From Octopus vulgaris (lineage: Eukaryota), in contig OX597827.1 of assembly GCA_951406725.2 (NCBI GenBank), positions 19,034,001 to 19,098,000 on the forward strand: a stretch of DNA of 64,000 nt, given 5' to 3'. The notes beneath the pieces are model-generated. The model saw nothing but the letters and a program-made list of their open reading frames with translations, was not told the origin of the DNA and ran no database searches. Of the stretch, positions 25,169 to 25,424 are shown in pieces; the first letter of the stretch is position 1, and every line of letters starts with the position of its first letter. The position numbers and the translations under genes were made by a program.

Positions 25169-25332
25169 CGTGACGCATATTTGCCATTAGAATATGGCTA
25201 ACCCCTAAGGGTGGATGCTACTGCAGTTTGTAGCCCAGGAAGATATCTCCTCCAGCTGGCTATAGACACACTACCCATGCCCTATCAGTATTTGTGAAGG
25301 GAAGTCATCCTTCCCGTCTTCAACTTATGATA

Positions 25333-25377
25333 CACACGGACTCGAGTTTCAAGGTGTTTACCTTTCATCAGCGTGTG
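25333..25377 (-). ncRNA. Canonical minimal type-I hammerhead ribozyme within a ~235-bp element (25169-25403)
   Basis: Minus strand reads CACACG-CTGATGA-AAGGT-AAAC-ACCTT-GAAAC-TCGA-GTC-CGTGTG: intact core, 6-bp stem I, 5-bp stem II, palindromic stem III, GUC cleavage triplet. Confidence 0.88.
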
Positions 25378-25424
25378 ACAATCATAGTTGTCGACGTGAA
25401 TTGATATATATATATATGCACATG

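What the first reader, a model, noticed from the sequence alone, without database searches (positions are those of the whole stretch)
25169..25403. Perfect canonical minimal hammerhead ribozyme in a ~235-bp element between (TA)n tracts
Seen: the minus strand at 25333-25377 has every core nucleotide (CUGAUGA, GAAA, GUC), a 6-bp stem I, a 5-bp stem II with a tetraloop, and an AC-UCGA-GU palindromic stem III. This is the best candidate for a catalytically competent ribozyme in the window. Activity is inference and probably needs dimerisation.
Basis: partly seen in the sequence, partly recalled or inferred. Interest (0 to 1): 0.72.

Follow-up and report, generated by a model that had tools for sequence, protein, structure and literature searches.

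The report
Truncated copy of a hammerhead retrozyme
This is one shortened copy of a 352-base, protein-less jumping repeat that carries a predicted self-cutting RNA likely working in pairs; such repeats are known, but this family also has a likely small-RNA-type promoter whose predicted start point is hit again and again by a second jumping gene.

Summary
The hammerhead is real: all core bases and stems are present at 25333-25377 (minus), with no comparable motif in 200 shuffles. It is a canonical metazoan type I hammerhead, not a minimal one. The 235 bp are the 5'-truncated end of a 352-bp non-coding unit with hundreds of copies in several subfamilies (a non-LTR retrozyme). Insertions show Penelope-type footprints: TA targets, inverted 5' arms and two fixed 3' ends 43 bp apart. 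Stem III stays self-complementary across subfamilies, including two adjacent bases that can pair only between two ribozymes, which supports dimer cleavage. This copy has one hammerhead, lacks the predicted promoter and is about 3% diverged, so it is likely a dead end. Its 'perfect' stem II is a minority variant. The unit shares a motif at -57 to -61 with U2 snRNA genes, and 35 of 40 copies of an L1/Tx1-like LINE sit at the predicted start. The scan found retrozymes and such LINEs before on other DNA of this genome. Cleavage, circular RNA and the mobilising Penelope element were not shown.

The parts
25169..25402 (-). 5'-truncated copy (unit positions about 1-235) of a 352-bp non-coding hammerhead retrozyme, subfamily A1; ends at the first of the family's two fixed 3' ends
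   Evidence: 96.9% identical to its nearest copies, 7 differences from the subfamily majority in 227 nt
25333..25377 (-). type I hammerhead: stem I, core CUGAUGA, stem II, GAAA, stem III, GUC
25339..25339 (-). C17; predicted cleavage 3' of this base
   Evidence: position read from the sequence; cleavage not shown
25340..25347 (-). self-complementary stem III octamer, predicted to pair with a second hammerhead
   Evidence: monomer pairing probability 0.00, self-duplex -10.7 kcal/mol; covariation across subfamilies
25351..25364 (-). stem II (4 bp) with UAAACA loop; A-U at 10.1-11.1 here, U-U in most copies of the subfamily
25327..25385 (-). extended stem I with UGU/U internal loop (U1.7 at 25332), the predicted tertiary partner of loop II
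   Evidence: analogy to the Schistosoma contact described in PMC2632901
25395..25395 (-). predicted transcription start of the unit and target site of the family's LINE; the promoter-like motif 58 nt upstream is missing in this copy, and no LINE is inserted here
   Evidence: the start is inferred
24937..25168 (.). (AT)116 tract at the 3' end; host target microsatellite, likely expanded after insertion
   Evidence: TA preference of the family
25404..25417 (.). (AT)7 tract at the 5' end; other half of the target

Best explanation
The stretch is a 5'-truncated copy of a 352-bp non-coding repeat with a canonical type I hammerhead fold (a non-LTR retrozyme), likely pasted into a TA tract by a Penelope-type enzyme and likely inert on its own. 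Family mechanism, step by step. (1, inferred) An snRNA-type promoter inside the unit starts RNA about 24 nt before the hammerhead core. (2, predicted) In tandem copies two hammerheads pair through their 8-bp palindromic stem III and cut, releasing a 352-nt monomer that folds as a highly paired rod and likely circularises. (3, inferred from footprints) A Penelope-like RT/GIY-YIG protein primes at a TA target from one of two fixed points of the unit, often on both strands, giving partial tandems with an inverted 5' arm. (4, shown in sequence; purpose inferred) An L1/Tx1-like LINE inserts at the predicted start site of these units, likely to borrow the promoter. The window copy holds one hammerhead, begins just upstream of the predicted start and so lacks the promoter motif. 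It would cut only weakly as a monomer, and only if read through from outside.
For: Family size: 82 and 431 exact core matches with 0 control matches, plus 136 of a GUA variant. Unit period 352 bp, longest open frame 81 codons. Of 83 de-duplicated insertions, 78 end at unit position ~235 (52) or ~280 (26); 53 have a TA-type 3' flank against 3.8% background; 43 have an inverted piece. Of 31 with both outer ends in the fixed classes, 30 pair one ~235 end with one ~280 end. 14 of 30 insertions outside TA tracts show direct repeats of 8 nt or more, the clearest 12-14 bp. These match the Penelope features in PMC8557442. Covariation over 34 distinct copies of three subfamilies: 93.7% of cells paired, 7 of 19 pairs with two-sided change, slid controls 16-53%. 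The stem III octamer reads ACUCGAGU, ACCCGGGU or ACUGCAGU. Inter-hammerhead stem III probability was 0.85-1.0, 0.62-0.72 and 0.23-0.28 in 3 natural tandems; circular monomers fold at -114 to -129 kcal/mol against about -86 +/- 5 for shuffles. ATCAG[T/C] lies at -57 to -61 in 17 of 18 LINE-free U2 loci and at the same offset from the LINE site in subfamilies A, B and C. 35 of 40 LINE 3' ends abut this lineage at one site.
Against: No cleavage or circular RNA was shown, and Rfam has no hit. No autonomous Penelope element sharing sequence with the unit was found: the 8 long-ORF Neptune-like copies tested share none. Only 8 of 83 insertions hold two same-strand hammerheads, and the longest same-strand stretch is 716 bp, so there are no long arrays in this sample. 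In a sample chosen without regard to the ribozyme, only 15 of 29 copies have the strict core; 12 carry a recurrent U4C change. 5' ends are not clearly enriched at the cleavage site (4 against 1.9 expected, P = 0.13). The covariation rests on a few subfamily-level events, and two of five whole-structure measures did not exceed the shuffles. The promoter motif is only 6 nt and was absent in 24 of 86 A-type, 5 of 14 B-type and 5 of 11 C-type stretches counted (some of these are truncated inside the 110 nt scanned). Eight of nine Xenopus retrozyme dimers did not cleave in vitro (10.64898/2026.07.22.740005).
Confidence: 0.82

Rival explanations
1. The 235 bp are the orphan terminal repeat (pseudo-LTR) of an autonomous, protein-coding Penelope element rather than part of an independent non-coding unit.
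For: Tail, inversions and TA targeting are Penelope features. Penelope RT fragments lie near 10 fetched loci and at window 22174-23030. Xenopus retrozymes resemble pseudo-LTRs.
Against: In the copies examined the sequence upstream of the hammerhead is the unit's own 3' part, an inverted piece, the LINE or unrelated flank; no shared coding region was seen. The two neighbours read in full (L169/L189, L188) are separated by TA tracts or other sequence and do not share the unit. Four successive subfamilies are all ~350-370-bp units.
Confidence: 0.08
2. The hammerhead cuts efficiently as a monomer thanks to the loop-loop contact and the A-U pair in stem II, so this copy is an active ribozyme whenever it is transcribed.
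For: Stems I and II fold with probability 0.82-0.99 in the window copy. U1.7 and the 3' A of loop II are present. The similar axolotl HHR_Amex2 cleaved 22% per hour as a monomer, and coral and mussel monomers cleave well.
Against: The 2-bp stem III has pairing probability 0.00 as a monomer. The palindrome is kept through changes that matter only between two molecules.
Confidence: 0.15
3. The family spreads as passive Penelope cargo, and the hammerhead shape is a relic no longer under selection.
For: The 10.1-11.1 mismatch is the norm in A1, B and C. A U4C core variant has spread. Cleavage-site 5' ends are not enriched.
Against: Compensatory changes occur in stems I, II and III across subfamilies up to ~22% apart, and an older family keeps the fold with a different sequence. 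A U-U mismatch is tolerated better than other mismatches.
Confidence: 0.08

Closest known systems
Metazoan non-LTR retrozymes (Cervera and de la Pena 2020, PMC7229834): mussel 350-390-bp repeats; axolotl Rtz_353 with HHR_Amex2
   Same: Non-coding ~350-bp unit, canonical type I hammerhead, 2-bp stem III with a tetraloop, U-U mismatch at the base of stem II (as HHR_Amex2), highly self-paired predicted circle
   Different: Dispersed partial tandems of at most about two units with inverted arms rather than long arrays; two fixed 3' ends; targeted by a LINE; no RNA evidence here
Penelope-like elements with C-terminal GIY-YIG (Neptune and relatives; PMC8557442, PMC4209133)
   Same: 5' truncation, partial tandems, inverted 5' copy, 30-40-bp tail at one end, TA microsatellite bias, hammerhead near the 3' end
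   Different: No ORF; canonical rather than minimal hammerhead; no sequence shared with the autonomous families tested
Newt satellite 2 and Schistosoma Sm-alpha hammerhead repeats
   Same: Palindromic stem III and dimer cleavage (newt, PMC6155905); snRNA-type internal promoter (newt, as cited in PMC2220036); YAAAYA loop II, identical to the Schistosoma CAAAUA in subfamily C (PMC2632901)
   Different: The promoter here is inferred only from a 6-nt motif and its spacing; Sm-alpha uses a Pol III promoter
Target-specific Tx1-clade LINEs: Tx1 in Tx1D, Keno in U2 genes, Tx1-Mar in Mariner-N4 (PMC4494074)
   Same: APE-RT ORF2 and zinc-knuckle ORF1; inserts at one site of another repeat with 14-20-bp duplications
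   Different: The target is a hammerhead retrozyme at its predicted transcription start; clade placement was not tested by a tree

Membership tests
Canonical type I hammerhead ribozyme | Core C3-U4-G5-A6-N7-G8-A9, G12-A13-A14, A15.1-U16.1, H17 | tested here: met
   core definition from PMC3088659
Canonical type I hammerhead ribozyme | Helix I 6 bp (open), helix II 4 bp, helix III 1-2 bp with palindromic loop | tested here: met
   definition in PMC4209133
Canonical type I hammerhead ribozyme | Base pair at 10.1-11.1 | tested here: met
   A-U in this copy, not the usual G-C; U-U or C-A in most family copies
Canonical type I hammerhead ribozyme | Loop I-loop II contact (5' U of loop 1, 3' A of loop 2) | tested here: inconclusive
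   The bases are present; the loop II A is invariant in 35 aligned copies; the contact itself cannot be modelled here
Canonical type I hammerhead ribozyme | Match to an Rfam hammerhead model | tested here: not met
   No hammerhead family at E <= 10
Canonical type I hammerhead ribozyme | Self-cleavage 3' of H17 | not testable with these tools
   Needs in vitro transcription
Minimal hammerhead (min-HHR) of Penelope elements | No helix III/loop 3, short helix I, long helix II, extra base before 10.1 | tested here: not met
   Helix III and a 6-bp helix I are present (definition)
Non-LTR retrozyme | Tandem unit of 150-450 bp with a type I hammerhead | tested here: met
   352-bp period
Non-LTR retrozyme | No protein coding | tested here: met
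   Longest frame 81 codons, 56 from ATG
Non-LTR retrozyme | Two consecutive hammerhead units (criterion for an active copy) | tested here: inconclusive
   Met by 8 of 83 family insertions, not by the window copy
Non-LTR retrozyme | Highly self-paired monomer fold | tested here: met
   3 of 3 natural monomers 6-8 SD below shuffles
Non-LTR retrozyme | Abundant circular RNA in tissues | not testable with these tools
   No run on record as RNA was listed; only contigs were available
Autonomous Penelope-like element | RT plus GIY-YIG ORF between the repeats | tested here: not met
   No shared coding flank among the copies read
Penelope-mobilised element | Partial tandems, inverted 5' copy, tail at one end, microsatellite target | tested here: met
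Tx1-clade target-specific LINE (the family's parasite) | More than 20% of copies flanked by one target sequence | tested here: met
   35 of 40; criterion from PMC4494074
Tx1-clade target-specific LINE (the family's parasite) | RT phylogeny within Tx1 | not tested
   Only Pfam domains and look-alikes; no reference Tx1 proteins were on hand

The most novel reading that the evidence does not exclude
A three-layer parasite chain. A hammerhead retrozyme with its own snRNA-type promoter is copied by Penelope enzymes priming from two fixed points on both DNA strands. A LINE has tracked this retrozyme's transcription start through successive subfamilies to steal the promoter, and is sometimes carried along inside the retrozyme RNA by the Penelope route (L286 has two LINE-bearing inverted arms ending at the two fixed points).
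Probability: 0.55. Interest if true: 0.68.

Novelty: new member of a known kind. Interest (0 to 1): 0.45.

Why it matters
The copy itself is ordinary: one dead-end insertion among hundreds. The family makes three open points testable. First, whether animal retrozymes are moved by Penelope proteins, which was proposed from co-occurrence and terminal-repeat similarity; here the insertion footprint is explicit. Second, whether dimer cleavage is under selection; three natural palindromes give ready-made swap experiments. Third, how a target-specific LINE recognises a site whose sequence drifts between subfamilies. My searches of the paper library found no report of a cephalopod retrozyme and no paper naming both Tx1 and retrozyme; most subscription journals are not in that library.

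Tried and rejected
Rfam: no hammerhead hit; the weak snoRNA and group II matches are chance. A recalled Pfam accession for Penelope proteins was not in the library. Pfam found nothing on the two window RT fragments, and the PDB search found nothing for the Neptune-like ORF. Partner search: the young Neptune-like family shares no DNA with the unit and has another hammerhead-like motif. Penelope ORFs beside L169 and L188 are separate insertions. A wider loop-II pattern gave 159 matches against 9 in the control; of 30 loci read, one had a distant Penelope fragment and none joined a hammerhead to an ORF. RNA: no RNA holder listed. Contigs of runs only guessed to be RNA cover the unit, but the depth step after the cleavage site also appears in the large run X15 of unknown kind and reflects sharing between subfamilies, so it was discarded. 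No silent control stretch was laid. 5'-end fossils: 4 of 170 arms end at the cleavage site (P = 0.13). 7 end at unit positions 5-8 near the predicted start (P = 0.012, post hoc, after dropping 5 chaining artefacts and 2 LINE junctions from that bin). Neither is used as support. Pure hitchhiking of the LINE was rejected: the GUA variant in LINE flanks is a 136-copy subfamily with only 2 of 30 loci LINE-adjacent, and 4 5'-truncated LINEs have target duplications. The newt promoter paper was not held. Three of six loci tried for dimer folding had only one pattern match and were not folded.

Full report
Observation. The minus strand at 25333-25377 carries every hammerhead core base, a 6-bp stem I, stem II and the self-complementary octamer ACUCGAGU, with C17 at 25339. 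It is the only such motif in the window. Shuffled windows gave 0.03 loose hits each and no strict hit in 200. Folding shows that stem I continues past a UGU/U internal loop (z = -3.5). Rfam does not recognise it. By the definitions in PMC4209133 (parts 1-2 of 4 read) this is the canonical metazoan type I design (helix I 6 bp, II 4 bp, III 1-2 bp with a palindromic loop), not the minimal form that lacks helix III. U1.7 and the 3' A of a YAAAYA loop II are the bases that make the tertiary contact in the Schistosoma ribozyme (PMC2632901, passages).

The element. A search of the own genome (2.8 Gb, 227 contigs) gave 40 scored copies at 94-100% identity. They are parts of a 352-bp unit that follows itself head to tail; the window holds unit positions about 1-235. 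The unit has no frame over 81 codons. Exact patterns found 54, 82 and 431 cores with 0 control matches, and 136 more of a GUA variant. Besides the window's subfamily A1 there are A2 and related variants, B (78% identical over the aligned part), C and an older family D of about 370 bp with the same layout. The window copy is 96.9% identical to its nearest copies and differs from the A1 majority at 7 of 227 positions; the median copy differs at 3. One of these differences makes the A-U pair at the base of stem II: 38 of 42 A1 copies have U-U there, and B and C mostly have C-A. A U-U mismatch is known in natural hammerheads (PMC3088659 section 8) and in axolotl HHR_Amex2 (PMC7229834 parts 2-3 of 6). 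In 29 copies picked by the non-ribozyme part, 15 had the strict core, 12 a recurrent U4C change and 2 other changes.

Dimer mechanism. On 35 aligned copies (34 distinct; 12 A, 12 B and 11 C, chosen by me from 157) the structure holds in 93.7% of cells. Seven of 19 pairs change on both sides, and sliding the partners drops pairing to 16-53%. Two of the five measures did not exceed the shuffles, and the changes are few subfamily-level events. The informative ones lie inside the stem III 'loop': UCGA, CCGG and UGCA are all self-complementary, and the middle two bases are neighbours that cannot pair within one strand. In the window copy stem III has probability 0.00. In three natural tandems the two octamers pair with each other (0.85-1.0, 0.62-0.72, 0.23-0.28), and the stretch between the two predicted cuts folds as a circle at -114 to -129 kcal/mol against about -86 +/- 5. 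This is the double-hammerhead route described for newt and viroid motifs (PMC6155905, passages). Activity is a prediction: in Xenopus only 1 of 9 dimers cleaved (10.64898/2026.07.22.740005, parts 1-3 of 5; supplements not seen).

Mobilisation. Among 83 de-duplicated A-type insertions, 78 end at unit position ~235 (52) or ~280 (26). Fifty-three run into a TA tract (background 3.8%), and 43 carry an inverted piece. Where both outer ends fall in the fixed classes, 30 of 31 pair one of each. Fourteen of 30 insertions outside TA tracts show direct repeats of 8 nt or more, some of low complexity. Eight have two same-strand hammerheads; the longest same-strand stretch is 716 bp. Partial tandems, an inverted 5' copy, a 30-40-bp tail at one end and microsatellite bias are the Penelope signature (PMC8557442, passages). 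The genome has a young RT plus GIY-YIG family with frames up to 1,211 codons (the clade name Neptune is from my recall of its motifs) and other Penelope-type families. None tested shares sequence with the unit, so the partner is unnamed.

Promoter and LINE. One copy (L169) is interrupted by an APE-RT LINE with a zinc-knuckle ORF1. Of the 40 best matches to its 3' end, 35 abut this retrozyme lineage at one site about 25 nt before the core. One abuts another hammerhead repeat at the matching place, and 4 lie elsewhere. Duplications are about 14-20 bp. Four 5'-truncated LINEs have the target on both sides, which indicates independent insertions; younger LINEs sit in A units, older ones in B- and C-type units. 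A few composites (L286, L290, L296) have the two-armed Penelope shape with LINE sequence inside, which suggests that LINE-bearing RNA was also copied by that route. Earlier notes of this scan proposed that the site is an snRNA-type start, and I tested it. ATCAG[T/C] lies at -57 to -61 in 17 of 18 LINE-free U2 loci, across three different upstream sequences, and 2 further U2 loci have a LINE-like 3' end directly at +1 (20 of 48 matches examined). The same motif lies 82-85 nt before the core in most A, B and C copies that retain that region, which is -58 to -60 from the LINE site; chance for such a window is 0.3%. Newt satellite 2 is cited as using an snRNA promoter (PMC2220036, passage; primary paper not held). 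The window copy starts only about 7 nt upstream of this site, so it lacks the motif. Target-specific Tx1 LINEs in other transposons and in U2 genes are known (PMC4494074, passages). A search for Tx1 with retrozyme found no paper, and searches with octopus or cephalopod found no retrozyme report (listings only).

What was not shown. No run on record as RNA holds the unit, and contig depth gave nothing usable. 5' ends are not significantly enriched at the cut site. That the genome is of an octopus comes from my recall of a neighbouring SINE and from earlier notes, not from a call of mine.

Verdict. The hammerhead fold is real and sits in a truncated, promoter-less, single-hammerhead copy of a non-LTR retrozyme: a new member of a known kind. 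The family is more interesting than the copy, because of the covarying palindrome, the Penelope footprint and the LINE at its predicted start. Interest 0.45.

Noticed in passing
L169:2580-7461; L280-L316: L1/Tx1-like LINE (about 5.3 kb) inserted at one site of this retrozyme lineage in 35 of 40 copies, once in another hammerhead repeat (L303), twice in one other shared repeat (L300, L315)
   Followed up: yes
L286:508-9732: Two-armed insertion of about 9 kb whose inverted arms both contain the LINE and end at the two fixed unit positions
   Followed up: partly
L352, L359 (upstream of position 1501): U2 snRNA genes with a LINE-like 3' end directly at +1
   Followed up: partly
window 22174-23030 (minus): Broken Penelope-type reverse transcriptase fragment; a related young family has 150 scored matches, many with frames over 1,000 codons
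   Followed up: partly
window 3648 (+), 37106 and 37301 (-), 4128 (+), 13404 (-): Variant hammerhead-like motifs; those at 37106 and 37301 match the 3' end of the young Penelope-type family
   Followed up: partly
L032, L033, L037, L040, L045, L047, L048, L051, L054, L055, L057, L058: Recurrent U4C core variant within family A that has evidently spread
   Followed up: no
L255, L256, L261, L265, L268, L270, L271, L272, L275: Further old, diverged repeats with canonical hammerhead cores and YAAAYA loops (159 pattern matches against 9 in the control)
   Followed up: no
L182:4770-5700: Subfamily B tandem with a 249-bp period (internally deleted unit), three hammerheads in a row
   Followed up: no
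window 14442-14874 and 38264-38629: Tandem repeats of 137 bp (3.2 copies) and 184 bp (2 copies, SINE-like) listed by Tandem Repeats Finder
   Followed up: no
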